From assembly GCA_000002445.1 (NCBI GenBank), contig CP000070.1, positions 1,664,001-1,728,000 of the forward strand: a stretch of DNA of 64,000 bases. Direction: 5' to 3'. The notes below the pieces were generated by a model. The model saw only the letters and a list, made by a program, of their open reading frames with translations. It was not told the DNA's origin and searched no databases. Position 1 is the stretch's first letter. The number at the start of each line of letters is the position of its first letter. Shown piece after piece: positions 25,691 to 50,840 of this stretch. The stretch comes from Trypanosoma brucei (taxonomy: Eukaryota). The position numbers were made by a program, and so were the translations under genes.

Positions 25691-26263
25691 TCACGAGTCT
25701 GCAGTGACGACGCCCCGCTCCCGCAGCTTATCGCAGAGCCAATCCATTCCTTCCAGTATCCCCTCACCAGTCTTGGCGCTGCTCTTGACGATTGTCCACG
25801 TCCGGCACGAAAGAGCCCCCACGCCGAGTTGTTCAGCCACACCAGCCTCGCTTACAGCCCCAACCACATCCTGCTTGTTAGCAAATATGAGCAATAAACT
25901 GCCCCGCAGCTCGTCTTCGTCTAGGAGGTTGCACAACTCATGCTTTGCGACCCCCATGCGATCCTTGTCCGTACTGTCCACAACATATATGACAGCGTCG
26001 GTGTCAGTAAAATAACAGCGCCAGAAAGGTCGGATATTCGCCTGGCCACCTAAGTCCCATACCTCAAACGTTATGTTTTTATGCGTCAGCGTCTCGAGGT
26101 TGAAACCGACTGTTGGTACAGTTGACGTTACATTGCCCAGTTGCAGACGGTACAGAATAGACGTTTTCCCCGCATTATCCAAACCTAAGACGAGCACGCG
26201 GATTTTTCTGTCCGCCGGTAGGATTCCGAGAAGGGATTTTATCTGCGAAACCAAAGCCCCCAT
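25691..26263 (-). CDS. ARL1: ADP-ribosylation factor-like GTPase, ARL1-type, 190 aa, N-terminal Gly2 myristoylation signal
   Basis: The sequence MGALVSQIK...[16 protein letters not shown]...[35 protein letters not shown]...LLIFANKQD matches human ARL1 ([43 protein letters not shown]) better than ARF1. The track ORF is extended by 61 aa of upstream read-through. ATG verified at 26261-26263. Confidence 0.85.
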   Translation of the reverse strand: [190 protein letters not shown]

Positions 26264-44583: not shown

Positions 44584-46233
44584 CTACATGAGTTCTTGGA
44601 TATATATATTCCCAAAAGTATCACCGAACGCCACTGTGCTGCACCTACCACGTGTTAAGGCATACACGGGCGCCTTGCAGAACGTACTAGCGTATTCCTC
44701 ACCGGTTCGTACATCAATCAAGTACACGAATCGGTTCGCACAAGCAGCCACAACGTAGTGAGTGAAGGCTCCTGGGGCAGAACAACATAACGTCCACCCC
44801 AGTCTCCGTACCTTTGGAATACCACCACATTTCCTCACAAACTCAGCTACCGACAGCCGCATTGTGCAAACACCATCTTTGGGGTTCCACATACACAAGA
44901 AGGCCTCATCATTGCTAAATATGTGCTCACCATCTGTGGAATAACTGCAGGACAACACAACGCCCACATGCCCAGAGAGCACCGTGCGAGTGCCTCCCCT
45001 TTCCGCACCCCACACGCGTAGGGTTTTATCAGAAGATCCACTACAGATGCTCCCGCCGTCAGGACTGTAACAAACGGCTGCAATAATACCGCAATGTCGA
45101 GTATACGTGACAACCTGAGCACCCCGCATCACATCCCACACACGACACACACGGTCCTGACAACCCGCCACAATGCGTTTACTGTCTGGGCTAAAGCAAC
45201 AGCATATGACCACCTTTTCATGCTTAAATACCGTCAGTACCTTTGTGATGGCGGCGTCCCAAAGCGTAAGCGTTTTGTCTTTGCTGCCCGTTGCCAAGTA
45301 TTTGCCGTCACCGGAGAAGGCCATACACATGACCACATCACGGTGACCCGAAAAGGAACCCCTCTCCTCGTCAGCCATAAGATTCCGCAGCGTCGCATAT
45401 GTCTCCTCATTTGAACAACTCACTAAGGCCTTCTCATTAGGTGAAAGGGAAAGACACCTCACACGCGCCGAATGGCCAATTAATGTCCGGATGCGGAAGT
45501 CTCTTATGTTACGCGGTACACCGAGTTCTGCAAGTTTTAGTTTCGAAAATTCCTGCTGAGCAATCATCCGAGCCCGCAACACGGCAAAGGCATTGGGTCG
45601 AGTGGAACAAGTAAAGGAAACCCGAGCACCCTTGAGGGCCTCATCCTCCTCAGAGCTCCTACTCAGGATGGAGAGGCGTTGTTTGCCAACCTTCACCATA
45701 CCCTCATTTGCTCCCGTTTCCATTTCATCGACCCACACCTTGAAGTCCGCAAAGCAAAAGACGTTGTTTTTCCCTTTCCTGGGTCCCATGGATAGTCGAC
45801 GGCTTCCTGACCGACTTCGCCGCATCTCTTGCGGCTGCCGGTTCACTTCAGCCTTCCACTGCCTAGAGTTAACTTCATCCTTTGCCACAACGACATCATC
45901 GTAGACAAAGAGATTCTCATCGATGAGATCGGGTAGCTGCCGGCGCTGATGCTCCAGATCTTCTAGGGCAAATGAGGTTCTAGCTAACATCGAATGCACA
46001 TCAAGCAGCGAGCGGCCAGACGATCCTGCAGAACTGATGTCCGATAGCATATCCTCTTCATCAATTCTAGCGCCGCTACTACTCCTTCTTATACCGCTCG
46101 ATTTCCGACGCAATCGCCTCGCATTCAGAAAATTTTCGGATGACTGGTGTTGACTCACTGTGCTCGGCTGCCGCTGAACCCTCATAGCAAAACCAGGGTT
46201 CACCACATCAGGGACACTCGAACCGCAACCCAT
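44584..46233 (-). CDS. WD40-repeat protein (~549 aa) with an N-terminal MGCGSS myristoylation/palmitoylation consensus
   Basis: At least five WD repeats: GHSARVRCLSLSPNEK, GHRDVVMCMAFSGDGKYLATGSKDKTLTLWD, VWDVMRG, CSGSSDKTLRVWG, GHVGVVLSCSYSTDGEHIF. The track start is a GTG followed by 23 unlikely residues. The first ATG is at 46231-46233, giving MGCGSSVPDVV. Confidence 0.8.
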   Translation of the reverse strand: MGCGSSVPDVVNPGFAMRVQRQPSTVSQHQSSENFLNARRLRRKSSGIRRSSSGARIDEEDMLSDISSAGSSGRSLLDVHSMLARTSFALEDLEHQRRQLPDLIDENLFVYDDVVVAKDEVNSRQWKAEVNRQPQEMRRSRSGSRRLSMGPRKGKNNVFCFADFKVWVDEMETGANEGMVKVGKQRLSILSRSSEEDEALKGARVSFTCSTRPNAFAVLRARMIAQQEFSKLKLAELGVPRNIRDFRIRTLIGHSARVRCLSLSPNEKALVSCSNEETYATLRNLMADEERGSFSGHRDVVMCMAFSGDGKYLATGSKDKTLTLWDAAITKVLTVFKHEKVVICCCFSPDSKRIVAGCQDRVCRVWDVMRGAQVVTYTRHCGIIAAVCYSPDGGSICSGSSDKTLRVWGAERGGTRTVLSGHVGVVLSCSYSTDGEHIFSNDEAFLCMWNPKDGVCTMRLSVAEFVRKCGGIPKVRRLGWTLCCSAPGAFTHYVVAACANRFVYLIDVRTGEEYASTFCKAPVYALTRGRCSTVAFGDTFGNIYIQELM

Positions 46234-48057
46234 ACGTTTCGAAAGAACCGCCGGAAACGGATCACGGCTCTCTCTGGAGGAAGGTTTCAAACACAATGCC
46301 ACTCAACGTAAAATAAAGAAAAAAACAAAATAAGAAAAAAACGTGGAAACAGGGGGGAAAAAAGAAAACAAAGGTACCTTCTGTAATAGACTTTTGAATT
46401 GACTTTATTACCTTGCGCCTCCACAGCCTTGTGTAGCTTTCCGCCTCTTTGCTGGTGTATAAATGTTTATATATATATATATGATAACCAGTGAGGTCGG
46501 TGCTGTCACAGTCGGTGAATTCGCACCTTCAAGTAATGGCGATAATAATTACCCTTAATACAAATACTACCTTAACCACCTTCTTCCGGTCGCTCTTCTT
46601 TTGTTTTGTTTTGCTTATGTTTTGTCTCGTTGTTGTTGTTGTTATCTATCTGTCCCTTCAACGTTACACTGCTCAAGTTAAATATGGTTGGCCGCGCCAA
46701 CTTTTCCTTTCGCTGTTTGTACACTTCTGCTGAGAGAACTTTCTGCCTCACCGCCACCACGTTAGTAGCAGATGCGGTGATAAATAAAAACAAAATAACT
46801 ACACTATTTATTTATATTTATATATTTATATATATATTGATTTGTAATAACGAGTAATTCAACTGAAACAAATATTAAGGGCTAGTCCCCGCGCAAACTC
46901 GTGATATGTAAGGACTTCCCTCGCGTACACTAAATAAGGACCCTCAGCCTTCACACATAAAGAGAAAGATATTAATATTAAAAGTAAAAGACAAAGAGAA
47001 ACACCAATGGTGAGGGAGAAAAGAAGATAAACGTAAAGAGTGGAAATAATAATAGTAGAAGCAACAATAACAGCAATTTTTTTTCTTGAAATAAACAGAA
47101 ACAATGACAGAAACACCACGCTGCAACGAGGCGGGAGCTTTGTGTTGTCGCTGATATATAATCATACCTCGTTGGATCTGAAGATACGAAAATAAAAAAG
47201 AGGGGAAAAGAGGGGAAGGAACAAAGAGAGGCAAAAAAAGAAAAAAAACACGACGTGAGAACGAGCCGAAGAGATGAAACATAAAACAACAAAAAAAAGA
47301 GCAAACTGTCAAACATCTGAACACAAAAAGGAAATCACCTTGCCTCACCTGCAGGCGCGTAGCAAATTCGTGACCTGTTTCATATACATTCACATACGCA
47401 GATATATATATATATATATATATGTAGTTGCAAATGAACGTTTGCTCGTGTATTACTTCCTCTTCAGCGGTTCCACCATCGTAGTTGTGTATTTAATGAT
47501 ATATTTTTCTATAGCTTGCCGACGATGTTGAAAAGGATCGTGGCATCAAATACAAAAGAAAGGAAGAATTAATGAATGAAGGTGAAACAAAAACAAAAAA
47601 AGGATGGAAATGGAAATGAAAGAACAAAAAGGAGTTGAAAGCGAATACAGTGTATCATTTCCCTCCAGATGGAAGCAATAGAAAGAGAGGAAGATAAAGA
47701 GAGAGAGAGAGAGCAACAAAGAGAGGAAATTCAGTACATATGGAAAAAAAAAACAAGAAAACACATCACATCACAAAAACGTAATAGCGACGAGTACGTG
47801 GAAAGAGAGAGGGGGGGACAAAAAAAATAACAAAAAAGGGAGGGAAGTGATCTAGTGCTTTTTATGGGTCTTATAACGCAAAATAACAATGCGTAGATGT
47901 GGGTTTCATTAATATTTTTTTTCTATTTCTCTCTCTCCTCTCTTTTCAACACCTTCATTTCATTTCATCTCTTCTCTTCTCTTCCCTTCGCCCCTTCTCC
48001 CCGGCCTCATTTTCGAATCTAGCCCCGCCTGAAGCCTCATATACCCAAACAAGTGGC

Positions 48058-48082: not shown

Positions 48083-48403
48083 AAGAAAGGGCCTCATATG
48101 GCTTGCATATCGACTTATACGGTGCAGCAGTGAAGTAAAATGCTTCACTCCCTCATCCTGTTTTTCTCTTTTGTTTTTATTTAATTTATTTTTTTTATTT
48201 TTTTTTTTTTTTTGAGATAAAGGGGAGGAATAACAAAGAAAAAGGGTGTCACATAATACTAGGGCCCACCTGTAAACACCAAAATAAACAAACAAAAACA
48301 CAACTTCTGTTCTCCTTCCCTGTAGAGAAAGAGACGTAAAACGTAGATAGAACGGTAACAAGAAGAAACGAGAGAATAATGTCCCTTCGGGTATTCATAT
48401 ATA

Positions 48404-48435
<32 letters not shown>

Positions 48436-48533
48436 CTCGTCCTTTTTTTTCTTTTGCCTACACAGTTCATCTGTCGAAACGCTATCACACGTTTTTCTCT
48501 TTTCTTTTTTTTTATTTTTCATTTCTTTTCCTT

Positions 48534-50840
48534 CTAAATATCACGGTTTTGTATGAGCTCGCTGAGGATGTCTTTGGTGTAACGAAGCCGTGCAGCAATT
48601 TCTCTAGAGCGTGTCGCAACAGACGATAGCGACATTGTCACGCGGTTGCCAGTTGGTTCTGTATATGTAACAACACGCGACTCCGAACTTAGAATAACTT
48701 CCGCCTTATCATGAAAACAAACCTGAATAGTTTTGTTGGATAGACGGAATATAATTGCTTGTGGTGTGATCAACCAGCGCTTGACATATACAATATCTTC
48801 AATCATGTGCGGTCCGCTAAGTGACGGAGTAACTTCGGACACATATGGTGAGCACCGTACAACCTCCACGTTGGTATGAGAATTACGCGTTCGTGAGAGG
48901 TATGATTTAAAGTATTTGATCAATGTCACCTTCTTGGTCAGGCTTTCAGGGAACATATCCATGTGAAACGCATGTTGTTGATCTCGCGCCTGCAGGACGT
49001 TGGCATTACCACGCGCAACAACTTCCTTCACTCGCATATAATACTCTACACGGTTTGTAATGGGCTCCCACACCATTTTAGTGGAGTCGTTGAAGTGCAC
49101 ACCGGTATGGCCGGTGCTCAACCGGTAACACAACCCGTATTTTTCGGAGAAATCCGCGAAACTCGTCACCCAAACAGTGGGAAGTGGCAACGATGGCGCC
49201 GGCTCGTCTTCGCATCTGGGCGTTAATGCAGGAACTGTAGATGTTGTGGGTGAGTTCGGCACTGGCAAGGGAGCCACTTGCGGTGACCGTTTGGTTTGTG
49301 TGCGGGTGGCAACCTCACGTGGGGAAATGTCGCCTATTTCCCGTAACGTCTGATGAAGTTGATCATGCACGGCGGTGAGTTCATTCTTCTCCTCTTCCTC
49401 TATAGCTGGGTGAGGTCTCAGCTGCACACGCGGAGTTGTTGCAGTGGTTTCCGCGGATTCATCAGCACCGCCCGGTGCGGCAACTTGCGTGAGGGGTCGA
49501 ATCGCATCTGCACGAGGTGACGGGATGCTCACCGCAGCACTGTTAATGTTGTTGTTGTTGTTGTTGTTGATGTTATTGTTATTGTTGTTGTTGTTGTTGT
49601 TGCAGTCACCGCCCAAAGCCCCATGAAACCTTGCGGAAGCTACCGCCGGGCAGCTGGGTTTTAGGTGGTATCGGTCCGTTTTGGGTAGATTTGTGCTGAT
49701 AGGTTGAAGCACTTCGCGGGACACACGCGGACTCGAAATGCAGCGAACAGCTTCAACTGATTTGGGCTGCGACTGCGGTTGACGGCGTTGCGGTGTTTGT
49801 TTCTGCAACGCCGCCTGAATGTCCCCTGATTTTTGGCGGCGAAGTGGAAGTGGTCCCTGCGCATGTCCTCGGGGGTCATCCGAATGCTGACGGCGGCGTG
49901 AACTGTAGAAGAGTGTGGTAGGTGCTGTCGTCGGTGGCGGCGGGAGGCGGAAAAATGGATGTGAACGAATTTCCAGCAACGTCGGCCGTTGGTCGGGGCG
50001 GCTCTGCAGAATACTGTGAATAAGTTCCTTCCCACTCTCTGGCACATCTACATGTGAAGGAAATTCATACCGGCATTGCCTAATACGACGGTAAGTGGCC
50101 TTCACATCTGATGTCTGAAACGGCGGCTCTCCAACCAACAGCGTGTAGAGGATCACACCGAGCGACCACACATCCACTTCGTAACTATGTCCCTCGCGCG
50201 AACCTTCAATGATCTCCGGTGCGATATAATTGGGCGTGCCACAAATAGTGCGTTTCCGCTCCCCGTCGTACTGCAACTCAGCAGCCAAACCGAAGTCCCC
50301 AATCTTCACGTTCATATTTGCATCCATCATTATGTTACCAAGTTTCAGGTCACGATGAATAACACATTGCTCATGCATATATTGAATGGCGGAAAGCGAC
50401 TGCAATGCAATGTATTGTGTCTCTGGCACACTGAAACGTTGCCGGCGCTTCAATATTTCCATCAGCGTCTGATTGCTGCACTTCTCCAACAGAATATAAA
50501 CATTCCAGTCGTCATGGAAGGTCCGTATGAAGTTAACAATGTGTTTGTGCTTCATGCGGCGGTGAATGGATATCTCAGAGTGGAGTTTCTGTAGTGTCTT
50601 AGTTTTCTGCAGTAGTGAGCGGTCCACAACCTTCAACGCATACGTATCGCCACCCTGCTCCACTTCATAACACTTTGCAAAGCCACCACGCCCGAGCATC
50701 CTTCCGCAACGGAAATATCCCACGAGACGGCCACTTTTATCAAACTCCTTAAGAGTTGAACCCTCACGAAAGTCCGGCCTGTCATTTGGAGGGCGCCGCG
50801 AACTCGACGGCGTTTCACACGTCTCAGCGGTTGCGTGCAT
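48534..50840 (-). CDS. PLK: Polo-like kinase, 768 aa: N-terminal Ser/Thr kinase domain, C-terminal polo-box domain, poly-Asn tract in the linker
   Basis: ATG verified at 50838-50840. The kinase has GRGGFAKCYEV, ALKVV, HRDLKLGN, DFGLA, GTPNYIAPE and DVWSLGVILY. The C-terminal half (WVTSFADFSEKYGLCYRLSTGHTGVHFNDSTKM... and ...ITPQAIIFRLSNKTIQVCFHD...) has polo-box character. The 768-aa length equals the published TbPLK length; this is recalled knowledge. Confidence 0.92.
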   Translation of the reverse strand: MHATAETCETPSSSRRPPNDRPDFREGSTLKEFDKSGRLVGYFRCGRMLGRGGFAKCYEVEQGGDTYALKVVDRSLLQKTKTLQKLHSEISIHRRMKHKHIVNFIRTFHDDWNVYILLEKCSNQTLMEILKRRQRFSVPETQYIALQSLSAIQYMHEQCVIHRDLKLGNIMMDANMNVKIGDFGLAAELQYDGERKRTICGTPNYIAPEIIEGSREGHSYEVDVWSLGVILYTLLVGEPPFQTSDVKATYRRIRQCRYEFPSHVDVPESGKELIHSILQSRPDQRPTLLEIRSHPFFRLPPPPTTAPTTLFYSSRRRQHSDDPRGHAQGPLPLRRQKSGDIQAALQKQTPQRRQPQSQPKSVEAVRCISSPRVSREVLQPISTNLPKTDRYHLKPSCPAVASARFHGALGGDCNNNNNNNNNNINNNNNNNINSAAVSIPSPRADAIRPLTQVAAPGGADESAETTATTPRVQLRPHPAIEEEEKNELTAVHDQLHQTLREIGDISPREVATRTQTKRSPQVAPLPVPNSPTTSTVPALTPRCEDEPAPSLPLPTVWVTSFADFSEKYGLCYRLSTGHTGVHFNDSTKMVWEPITNRVEYYMRVKEVVARGNANVLQARDQQHAFHMDMFPESLTKKVTLIKYFKSYLSRTRNSHTNVEVVRCSPYVSEVTPSLSGPHMIEDIVYVKRWLITPQAIIFRLSNKTIQVCFHDKAEVILSSESRVVTYTEPTGNRVTMSLSSVATRSREIAARLRYTKDILSELIQNRDI
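49541..49602 (-). repeat. (AAC/AAT)n trinucleotide repeat inside the PLK CDS, encoding NNNNNNNNNNINNNNNNNIN
   Basis: The + strand reads tgttaatgttgttgttgttgttgttgatgttattgttattgttgttgttgttgttgttgc. The reading frame is maintained. Confidence 0.85.

What the first reader, a model, noticed from the sequence alone, without database searches (positions are those of the whole stretch)
46165..46233. WD40 protein begins with MGCGSS, a dual acylation consensus; the annotated start is probably too far upstream
The ORF track starts this gene at a GTG with 23 implausible residues. The first ATG gives MGCGSSVPDVV. Gly2 followed by Cys3 and Ser6 is the classic N-myristoylation plus palmitoylation consensus. 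In trypanosomes, dual-acylated N-termini of this type are used by membrane- and flagellum-targeted proteins such as the calflagins (recalled). A WD40 scaffold anchored in this way would be a membrane-proximal adaptor.
Basis: partly seen in the sequence, partly recalled or inferred. Interest (0 to 1): 0.5.

Follow-up and report, generated by a model that had tools for sequence, protein, structure and literature searches.

The report
Lipid-anchored WD40 protein of trypanosomes
This Trypanosoma brucei gene (Tb927.7.6300) encodes a WD40 propeller protein whose first residues, Met-Gly-Cys-x-x-Ser, are a signal for attaching two fatty acids; that signal is conserved across the phylum Euglenozoa, so the protein is very probably membrane-tethered, but it is one more member of a well-known class, not a surprise.

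Summary
The window is T. brucei chromosome 7. The gene (minus strand, ATG 46233, stop 44584-44586, 549 aa) is Tb927.7.6300: a published TrypTag primer matches it exactly. The GTG "start" at 46302 comes from the bacterial-code ORF lister. It follows a TGA directly and lies at the predicted splice-leader acceptor. The public protein record already starts at MGCGSS.

In 36 orthologues with credible starts, from kinetoplastids, diplonemids and a euglenid:
- Gly2 is invariant.
- A Cys lies at position 3 (35/36) or position 5 (1/36).
- Position 6 is Ser in 32/36, otherwise C, G or T.
- Flanking residues are unconserved and codons vary synonymously.

The T. cruzi orthologue was predicted N-myristoylated in 2007 (score 0.984). 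The T. brucei protein is absent from that paper's high-confidence list, and no chemical-proteomic dataset I could read contains it.

The protein has an acylation motif, then about 240 disordered residues with three conserved short motifs, then a confident seven-bladed WD40 propeller of no specific subfamily. Flagellar targeting is not supported: dual acylation alone gives plasma-membrane association. This is a new member of a known kind, of modest interest. Side result: the L. major and Porcisia gene models start too far downstream and hide the motif.

The parts
44584..46233 (-). Coding sequence of Tb927.7.6300 (Tb07.2F2.630): 549 codons plus the stop codon at 44584-44586
   Evidence: ORF. 100% identical to XP_846253.1/Q57VI1, 549 aa. 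The TrypTag C-terminal tagging primer for Tb927.7.6300 matches 44587-44666(-) exactly.
46213..46233 (-). Start codon (46233-46231) and acylation motif M1-G2-C3-G4-S5-S6-V7. Gly2 (46230-46228) is the predicted myristoylation site, Cys3 (46227-46225) the predicted palmitoylation site, and Ser6 (46218-46216) the favoured NMT-pocket residue.
   Evidence: Sequence. It fits G-{EDRKHPFYW}-x(2)-[STAGCNDEF]-{P} (pattern from PMC1885993; test). G2 36/36, C3 35/36, S6 32/36 in orthologues.
46234..46302 (-). Spurious 23-codon GTG extension from the ORF track. It is really the predicted 5' UTR (about 68 nt), with no ATG in any frame.
46303..46305 (-). In-frame TGA stop immediately upstream of the GTG. Its last base together with the G of the GTG (46303-46302) forms the first AG after the polypyrimidine tract, which is the predicted splice-leader acceptor. 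Further AGs lie at 46275-46268.
   Evidence: read directly from the sequence. SL mapping was not available.
46315..46374 (-). 60-nt polypyrimidine tract, the predicted trans-splicing signal for this gene
   Evidence: Equivalent tract plus AG lies 55-82 nt upstream of the MGC ATG in T. cruzi, T. vivax, L. major and Porcisia.
45502..46212 (-). Residues 8-244: poorly conserved, predicted disordered linker
   Evidence: AF2 pLDDT is below 50 for residues 1-89, 100-111, 113-117 and 120-209, and about 56 for the 91-100 block. Column identity is 0.22-0.64 here against about 0.7 in the propeller. No credible Pfam domain; the only match is a sub-threshold MazE-like hit, 18.4 bits against a cutoff of 22.
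46030..46062 (-). Conserved linker motif 1: acidic run plus LSDIS (DEEDMLSDISS, residues 58-68)
   Evidence: Alignment A1; S64 is nearly invariant.
45874..45924 (-). Conserved linker motif 2: IDENLFVYDDVVVAKDE (residues 104-120)
   Evidence: F109 invariant and D113 at 90% or more. Family-specific pattern F-x-[FWY]-x-D-[FV]-x-[VI].
45724..45762 (-). Conserved linker motif 3: VFCFADFKVWVDE (residues 158-170)
   Evidence: F159, D163 and F164 are invariant. The motif is present in nearly all of P0001-P0050 and absent from the generic WD40 hits P0051-P0120.
45523..45591 (-). Predicted alpha-helix, residues 215-237, preceding the propeller
   Evidence: AF2, pLDDT about 70. Sequence poorly conserved.
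44587..45501 (-). Seven-bladed WD40 beta-propeller, residues 245-549
   Evidence: Pfam WD40 PF00400, E=1.1e-37, 4 repeats. AF2 gives 28 strands, with pLDDT blocks 93-98 apart from an 81 dip at residues 471-480. Foldseek TM 0.8-0.9 to WDR5, G-beta and a bacterial WD40.

Best explanation
Tb927.7.6300 encodes a peripheral membrane protein that is tethered by N-terminal dual acylation. Translation starts at the first AUG (46233) of the trans-spliced mRNA. Methionine aminopeptidase then exposes Gly2, and N-myristoyltransferase attaches myristate co-translationally, with Ser6 fitting the NMT pocket. The weakly membrane-bound protein next meets a DHHC palmitoyl-acyltransferase, which S-acylates Cys3 and locks it on the cytoplasmic face of a membrane. 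A disordered linker of about 240 residues carries three conserved short motifs and holds a C-terminal seven-bladed WD40 propeller, which serves as a protein-docking platform near that membrane. What is shown: the start codon, the motif, its deep conservation, and the disordered-linker-plus-propeller architecture. What is inferred: that the two lipids are really attached. What is unknown: which membrane it sits on and which partners it binds.
For: The MGCGSS start and the stop-flanked GTG artefact are in the sequence. The public 549-aa model is identical. The polypyrimidine tract plus AG lies about 70 nt upstream with no upstream ATG, and the same layout is seen in T. cruzi, T. vivax, L. major and Porcisia. 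In 36 orthologues from Trypanosoma, Leishmaniinae, Angomonas, a prokinetoplastid, five diplonemids and the euglenid Petalomonas, G2 is 36/36. Cys is at position 3 in 35/36, and the exception, Angomonas MGGGCS, has Cys5. Position 6 is S/C/G/T in 36/36, position 7 is never Pro, and all pass the relaxed PROSITE/NMT pattern. Neighbouring positions are unconserved. Codons for G2, C3 and S6 differ synonymously between species, so selection acts on the amino acids. Apparent exceptions are mis-called starts: in L. major and Porcisia the first in-frame ATG encodes MGCLLS or MGCVLS. The T. cruzi orthologue Tc00.1047053508917.20 scored 0.984 with Myristoylator (PMC1885993 supplement). The identical hexapeptide MGCGSS heads a T. 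cruzi calpain-like protein that was enriched experimentally. GC- and GAC-initial lipid-modified peptides with hydrophobic followers were sequenced in L. donovani. Architecture.
Against: There is no direct evidence of lipid attachment. The T. brucei protein is not in the 2007 high-confidence Myristoylator table, although it passes that paper's first filter. Its residues 7-17 (VPDVVNPGFAM) are hydrophobic or acidic with no basic residue, which is less favourable for NMT. The orthologues are absent from the T. cruzi and L. donovani chemical-proteomic supplements that I searched. For Leishmania a truncated gene model would explain this, but I showed truncation only for the L. major model. I could not obtain the T. 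brucei lipidation (Wright 2016) and palmitoylome (Emmer 2011) datasets. TrypTag lists C-terminal tagging only as 'attempted', so no localisation with a free N-terminus is on record.
Confidence: 0.8

Rival explanations
1. The protein is myristoylated only. Gly2 is modified, but Cys3 is not palmitoylated, giving weak, reversible membrane or protein binding, as for ARL1 or the myristoyl-only WD40 protein Tb927.7.550.
For: Myristoyl-only substrates are common. A different trypanosomatid WD40 protein (T. cruzi K4E818, MGSGGS...) is an experimental NMT substrate with no nearby Cys. Palmitoylation cannot be predicted rigorously from sequence.
Against: Cys is kept next to Gly2 in 35/36 orthologues. 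In the one exception it has moved to position 5 rather than being lost, which is the behaviour expected of an S-acylation site. Position 3 of NMT substrates tolerates many residues, so NMT alone would not fix Cys there.
Confidence: 0.1
2. The protein is not acylated at all. The conserved MGC reflects some other constraint, such as translation-initiation context or N-terminal stability rules, and the protein is cytosolic.
For: The T. brucei protein is absent from the high-confidence predictor list, and the orthologues are absent from the chemical-proteomic lists I searched. The downstream residues are suboptimal.
Against: Synonymous codon variation at G2, C3 and S6, together with an unconserved upstream context, argues against a nucleotide-level constraint. 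The three conserved positions are exactly those the NMT and PAT consensus requires. The T. cruzi orthologue scores 0.984.
Confidence: 0.07
3. A different start codon is used: either the upstream GTG (46302) or the downstream Met17. In that case Gly2 is never exposed.
For: The frame is open from 46302, and Met17 exists in T. brucei.
Against: The GTG is non-AUG, follows a TGA directly and overlaps the predicted SL acceptor, so it would lie at or outside the 5' end of the mRNA. The extension is not conserved, and in other species the upstream frame is closed 4-75 codons before the ATG with no Met. Met17 is not conserved, whereas residues 1-6 are.
Confidence: 0.03

Closest known systems
Calflagins (Tb17/Tb24/Tb44) and T. 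cruzi/Lotmaria FCaBP: dual-acylated flagellar calcium-binding proteins
   Same: They share the MGC(x)(x)S N-terminus (for example Tb44A MGCSASKDTT and Tb24-type MGCSGSKNTT). Myristoyl-Gly2 plus palmitoyl-Cys3 is the membrane anchor.
   Different: They are small EF-hand proteins, not a long disordered linker plus WD40 propeller. Their flagellar enrichment depends on further N-terminal sorting residues (Lys/Ser at positions 9-11) and the BBSome (PMC10939215). The WD40 family shows no conservation beyond position 6, and T. brucei has no Lys in its first 43 residues.
Leishmania/T. brucei PPEF phosphatase (dual-acylated, endomembrane)
   Same: It is a kinetoplastid protein with an N-terminal myristoylation plus palmitoylation signal attached to a globular functional domain. 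It shows that dual acylation can target the endocytic system rather than the flagellum (PMC1885993 abstract).
   Different: Its cargo domain is a phosphatase with degenerate EF-hands. Acylation was shown experimentally for PPEF but not for this protein.
T. cruzi K4E818 / Tb927.7.550: N-myristoylated WD-repeat protein
   Same: It is a trypanosomatid protein with an MG start, a non-propeller N-terminal region and C-terminal WD40 repeats. It is an experimentally confirmed NMT-dependent substrate (PMC4974623 supplement).
   Different: It is a different gene and not a close paralogue, because it is not among the family hits. It starts MGSGGS with no Cys, so it is myristoylated only.
G-alpha-i/o and Src-family kinases (Lck, Fyn): the classical MGC dual-acylation paradigm
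   Same: They carry the same N-terminal Met-Gly-Cys logic of myristate followed by palmitate. This rests on established knowledge and was not tested here.
   Different: The cargo domains are unrelated. They belong to opisthokont signalling systems that kinetoplastids lack (established knowledge).
G-beta and WDR5-type seven-bladed WD40 propellers
   Same: They share the seven-bladed WD40 fold, with Foldseek TM 0.76-0.92 normalised to the target. G-beta also has a helix preceding the propeller.
   Different: Identity is only 17-27%. The Pfam G-beta model scores 102 bits against a cutoff of 150. G-beta is membrane-attached through prenylated G-gamma, not through its own N-terminus.

Membership tests
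N-myristoyltransferase substrates | Gly immediately after the initiator Met | tested here: met
   ATG GGT at 46233-46228. G2 is present in 36/36 orthologues.
N-myristoyltransferase substrates | That Met is the real translation start (the first AUG of the trans-spliced mRNA) | tested here: met
   By sequence only. There is an in-frame TGA 24 codons upstream, a polypyrimidine tract plus AG about 70 nt upstream, and no ATG in between. Four other species show the same layout. Experimental SL mapping could not be retrieved.
N-myristoyltransferase substrates | Consensus G-{EDRKHPFYW}-x(2)-[STAGCNDEF]-{P}, with Ser/Thr preferred at position 6 | tested here: met
   G-C-G-S-S-V passes. All 36 orthologues pass, and S6 is present in 32/36. 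The pattern is as given in PMC1885993.
N-myristoyltransferase substrates | High score from a trained predictor (Myristoylator or NMT Predictor) | tested here: inconclusive
   The T. cruzi orthologue scores 0.984. The T. brucei protein is not in the high-confidence table of the same paper. The predictors themselves could not be run here.
N-myristoyltransferase substrates | Myristate shown on the protein by metabolic tagging, MS or NMT-inhibitor sensitivity | not testable with these tools
   It is not listed in the T. cruzi or L. donovani supplements I searched. The T. brucei dataset is not held.
Dual-acylated (myristoyl + palmitoyl) N-termini | A Cys within a few residues of the myristoylated Gly, conserved in orthologues | tested here: met
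   C3 in 35/36 and C5 in the remaining one.
Dual-acylated (myristoyl + palmitoyl) N-termini | A thioester-linked acyl group demonstrated on that Cys | not testable with these tools
   The palmitoylome paper is not held.
Flagellar-membrane dual-acylated proteins (calflagin/FCaBP type) | Additional N-terminal sorting residues beyond the acylation site that direct flagellar enrichment | tested here: inconclusive
   Positions 7-16 are not conserved in the family, and T. brucei has no basic residue there. The known determinants are species-specific, so absence of conservation does not exclude flagellar targeting.
WD40 beta-propeller proteins (Pfam PF00400) | Multiple WD repeats forming a closed propeller | tested here: met
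   PF00400 scores 127 bits against a cutoff of 27. The AF2 model has seven blades, with pLDDT blocks 93-98 apart from an 81 dip at residues 471-480. Foldseek agrees.
Heterotrimeric G-protein beta subunits | A match to the G-beta-specific profile above its threshold | tested here: not met
   PF25391 WD40_Gbeta scores 102.4 bits against a cutoff of 150. Structural alignments show 17-19% identity.
Clathrin-adaptor accessory proteins with gamma-ear/GAE-binding motifs | Acidic-aromatic motifs of the DFGGF / FGxLV / WNSF type in a disordered region that bind the AP-1 gamma ear | not tested
   This is a resemblance only. The family has 2-3 copies of [FW]-[GASNT]-D-F after acidic residues. The comparator motifs come from PMC13581114. 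No binding or docking test was possible.

The most novel reading that the evidence does not exclude
The family may be an ancient, Euglenozoa-wide, lipid-anchored coat-recruitment or signalling platform. In this reading the conserved acidic F-x-[FW]-x-D-F repeats in the disordered tether are adaptor-ear (AP-1 gamma-ear type) binding motifs and the propeller binds cargo or regulators. The protein would then be a lineage-specific membrane-trafficking adaptor with no counterpart in opisthokonts.
Probability: 0.1. Interest if true: 0.6.

Novelty: new member of a known kind. Interest (0 to 1): 0.3.

Why it matters
N-myristoyltransferase is a validated drug target in trypanosomes and Leishmania, so a complete substrate list matters. 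This family is a conserved, uncharacterised, probable substrate. It is missing from Leishmania substrate lists, and in L. major at least the reference gene model is truncated. It also gives a practical warning: the only TrypTag line recorded for Tb927.7.6300 carries an N-terminal tag, which would mask Gly2. Its native localisation is therefore effectively unknown. Beyond that, it is another example of a common targeting device and does not open a long-standing question.

Tried and rejected
1. A profile search of the 1.84-billion-representative library with the full-length family alignment was uninformative. The top 150 were almost all giant multi-WD40 proteins scoring through many repeats.
2. 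I searched for SL-acceptor data for this gene in the supplements of Kolev 2010 and Nilsson 2010. No rows are held, not even for the neighbouring PLK gene.
3. The T. brucei lipidation proteome (Wright 2016) and palmitoylome (Emmer 2011) are not held. The main text of the lipid-raft proteome paper does not mention the gene.
4. Full-text searches for the gene IDs and accessions found no paper discussing this protein.
5. The bacterial promoter and terminator scan is irrelevant to a trypanosome polycistron and was disregarded.
6. Pfam on the N-terminal 250 residues gave only a sub-threshold MazE-like hit (18 bits, below cutoff), rejected as chance.
7. I considered a G-beta identity because of the helix plus propeller and some database names. 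I rejected it on the Pfam threshold and low identity.
8. The TrypTag localisation of the N-terminally tagged line could not be read, because the supplement look-ups were exhausted.
Full report
**What is at the coordinates.** The finding lies on the minus strand. From 46233 the codons read ATG GGT TGC GGT TCG AGT GTC CCT, which is M-G-C-G-S-S-V-P. The mechanical ORF lister uses the bacterial code and accepts GTG and TTG as starts. It begins the frame at GTG 46302-46300 and adds 23 residues, VALCLKPSSRESRDPFPAVLSKR. That GTG is directly preceded by an in-frame TGA (46305-46303), and the extension holds no Met. So the GTG is simply the first permitted codon after a stop, not evidence of a start. 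From the ATG the protein is 549 aa with its stop at 44584-44586.

**Identity of the gene.** The 549-aa product is 100% identical over its full length to the deposited T. brucei TREU927 protein XP_846253.1 / AAZ12694.1 / Q57VI1 ("hypothetical protein, conserved"). It falls in the same 90%-identity cluster as the T. b. gambiense protein, and the same sequence is recorded for T. equiperdum. The window also carries:
- TbARL1 (MGALVSQIKS..., Tb07.2F2.550) at 26263(-).
- Polo-like kinase at 48534-50840(-), which is Tb927.7.6310 / Tb07.2F2.640.

The TrypTag supplement has a row "Tb927.7.6300 / Tb07.2F2.630" whose 80-nt C-terminal tagging primer matches window 44587-44666(-) without mismatch. The gene is therefore Tb927.7.6300, and its public model already starts at MGCGSS. 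The "annotated start too far upstream" applies only to the ORF track.

**Is the ATG the real start?** A 60-nt polypyrimidine tract (46374-46315) is followed by the first AG at 46303-46302, with further AGs at 46275-46268. There is no ATG in any frame between that AG and 46233. This is the standard arrangement of a trypanosome trans-splicing acceptor (established knowledge), and it predicts a 5' UTR of about 68 nt. I fetched orthologous loci for T. cruzi, T. vivax, L. major and Porcisia hertigi. In each one the ATG encoding MGC is the first in-frame ATG after an in-frame stop. In each a polypyrimidine tract plus AG sits 55-82 nt upstream, with no intervening ATG. Experimental SL-site tables for this gene could not be retrieved.

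**Is the motif more than chance?** One MGC start means little. [quoted passage not shown] The decisive evidence is conservation. Of the top 50 homologues, 36 have credible N-termini, counting the full-length L. major and Angomonas cluster members. They come from:
- Trypanosoma: brucei, congolense, vivax, grayi, cruzi, marinkellei, conorhini, theileri, melophagium.
- Leishmania, Leptomonas, Novymonas and Angomonas.
- The prokinetoplastid Papus.
- The diplonemids Diplonema papillatum and D. japonicum, Rhynchopus, Namystynia and Artemidia.
- The euglenid Petalomonas.

Across these 36 sequences:

| Position | Residues |
|---|---|
| 2 | Gly 36/36 |
| 3 | Cys 35/36 (Angomonas is MGGGCS, with Cys5) |
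| 6 | Ser 32, Cys 2, Gly 1, Thr 1 |
| 7 | never Pro |

All 36 fit the relaxed PROSITE/NMT-Predictor pattern G-{EDRKHPFYW}-x(2)-[STAGCNDEF]-{P}. In contrast, positions 4-5 and 7-60 are mostly at or below 30-40% column identity, and the linker varies from about 150 to about 620 residues. Across five species the codons for Gly2 (GGT/GGC/GGG), Cys3 (TGC/TGT) and Ser6 (AGT/AGC) differ synonymously, and the upstream context is unrelated. Selection therefore acts on the amino acids. As a control, none of the 70 generic WD40 hits outside the family (P0051-P0120) starts with MGC.

**The apparent exceptions are annotation errors.**
- The L. major Friedlin model (661 aa, MHEGG...) starts 37 codons downstream of the first in-frame ATG, which encodes MGCLLSSSVVDR. 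An independent 698-aa assembly product has that start.
- The Porcisia hertigi model starts 166 codons downstream of MGCVLSRSFVTG.
- Two other long gene models contain the motif internally: MGCVLSN in P0017 and MGCAAGK in P0040.

In several Leishmaniinae the start is called too far downstream, which hides the acylation signal. This probably explains its absence from the L. major prediction list, and possibly from the L. donovani MG-protein tables too, although I did not check the L. donovani gene model.

**What the literature holds.**
- Mills et al. 2007 list the T. cruzi orthologue (Tc00.1047053508917.20, MGCGASRNVK ADADVSLPVF) among high-confidence N-myristoylation predictions, with a Myristoylator score of 0.984.
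- The T. brucei protein passes that paper's first filter but is not in its high-confidence T. brucei table. The likely reason is that residues 7-17 (VPDVVNPGFAM) are hydrophobic or acidic rather than basic or hydrophilic, but this is my inference.
- The experimental T. cruzi N-myristoylome does not list the orthologue.
- That dataset does contain a calpain-like protein with the identical MGCGSS start, and a different WD40 protein (K4E818, orthologue Tb927.7.550, MGSGGS...). So NMT accepts this hexapeptide, and myristoylated WD40 proteins have precedent.
- In L. donovani, lipid-modified GC... and GACVVSVMAK peptides were sequenced directly. Hydrophobic residues after the site are therefore tolerated.
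- The T. brucei lipidation and palmitoylome datasets are not held.
- No paper in the searchable library discusses Tb927.7.6300.

**Architecture.** Pfam finds only WD40 repeats (PF00400, 127 bits). All subfamily-specific propeller models score below their thresholds, including G-beta at 102 against 150. An AlphaFold2 model built on the 28-sequence family alignment shows:
- Residues 1 to about 210 at mostly pLDDT below 50, predicted disordered.
- A helix at 215-237 with pLDDT about 70.
- A seven-bladed propeller (28 strands, residues 245-549) with pLDDT blocks of 93-98, apart from an 81 dip at residues 471-480.

Foldseek against the PDB returns generic WD40 propellers at 17-27% identity: a bacterial WD40, WDR5, G-beta, ODA16 and LIS1. 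The propeller cannot be assigned to a functional subfamily.

**Conserved motifs in the linker.** The linker is not featureless. Three short motifs are conserved across the phylum:
- An acidic run plus LSDIS (T. brucei residues 58-68).
- IEEDLFVYDDxVVSKxEA (residues 104-120, F109 invariant).
- FxFxDFxVxVDE (residues 158-170, with F159, D163 and F164 invariant).

The last two are copies of one pattern, F-x-[FWY]-x-D-[FV]-x-[VI]. It occurs two or three times per protein, is present in nearly all of P0001-P0050, and is absent from P0051-P0120, so it defines the family. Its core [FW]-[GASNT]-D-F after acidic residues resembles the gamma-adaptin/GGA-ear ligands DFGGF, FGxLV and WNSF. That is only a resemblance, and I could not test it.

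**How it most likely works.** Initiation occurs at AUG 46233. Met1 is removed, Gly2 is myristoylated co-translationally by NMT, and Cys3 is then palmitoylated by a membrane-bound DHHC enzyme. The result is stable attachment to the cytoplasmic leaflet. A long flexible tether presents linear motifs and a WD40 docking platform. The steps of the enzymology are established for this class of N-terminus (the calflagin/FCaBP and PPEF precedents). Their application to this protein is inferred from conservation, at about 0.8 confidence.

Which membrane it occupies is unknown. Work on FCaBP shows that dual acylation by default gives whole-cell plasma-membrane association, and that flagellar enrichment needs additional N-terminal sorting residues and the BBSome. 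PPEF, also dual-acylated, is endosomal. TrypTag records C-terminal tagging only as "attempted" and has a cell line only for N-terminal tagging, which would block Gly2. The native localisation is therefore effectively untested.

**Verdict.** This is a probable new member of the well-known class of dual-acylated kinetoplastid proteins. The T. cruzi member was predicted in 2007, so the specific claim is only modestly novel. What I add:
- The verified gene identity.
- The demonstration that the GTG start is an artefact.
- Conservation of the signal across Euglenozoa.
- The family-defining linker motifs.
- The truncated Leishmaniinae gene models.

Interest is modest, at about 0.3.

Noticed in passing
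L002 5890-6000 (L. major) and L001 2003-2500 (Porcisia hertigi): The reference gene models of the orthologue start 37 codons (L. major Friedlin, MHEGG...) and 166 codons (Porcisia, MASASAD...) downstream of the first in-frame ATG, which encodes MGCLLS or MGCVLS. The acylation motif is therefore hidden by annotation, which probably explains why the family is missing from Leishmania N-myristoylome lists.
   Followed up: yes
window 45724-45762 and 45874-45924 (minus strand; residues 158-170 and 104-120): The motif F-x-[FWY]-x-D-[FV]-x-[VI] after acidic residues is repeated two or three times in the disordered linker. It is conserved from euglenids to trypanosomes and absent from generic WD40 hits. 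Its core resembles gamma-adaptin/GGA-ear-binding motifs, but its function is unknown.
   Followed up: partly
window 25691-26263 (minus strand): The ORF starting MGALVSQIKSLLGILPADRK is TbARL1 (Tb07.2F2.550), a known N-myristoylated Golgi GTPase. The window therefore contains a second, myristoyl-only NMT substrate.
   Followed up: partly
window 49547-49602 (within PLK, 48534-50840, minus strand): A (GTT)n/(AAC)n trinucleotide array encodes a poly-asparagine tract of about 20 residues in the linker of polo-like kinase Tb927.7.6310.
   Followed up: no
window 35638-55982; L003, L004, L001, L002: The gene order RCC1/BTB - PLK - WD40 - kinesin - FAP206 is shared by T. brucei and T. cruzi, and T. vivax (a short contig) also has PLK directly upstream of the WD40 gene. 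In L. major and Porcisia no PLK gene lies between the RCC1/BTB gene and the WD40 gene. In L. major there is also no PLK-sized ORF in the 2.85-kb gap.
   Followed up: partly
literature (PMC4974623 supplement); T. brucei orthologue Tb927.7.550, outside this window: A different trypanosomatid WD40 protein (T. cruzi K4E818, MGSGGSTS..., 499 aa) is an experimentally NMT-dependent substrate. Lipid-anchored WD40 proteins may therefore be a small recurring theme in trypanosomatids.
   Followed up: no
literature (PMC9981465 supplement file 2, row Tb927.7.6300): TrypTag lists C-terminal tagging of this gene as only 'attempted' and N-terminal tagging as 'cell line generated'. Any localisation on record comes from a construct that masks Gly2. 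I could not read the annotation itself.
   Followed up: partly
window 46470-46490, 46805-46837, 48392-48436: (TA)n/(AT)n microsatellites lie in the intergenic and UTR regions flanking the gene.
   Followed up: no
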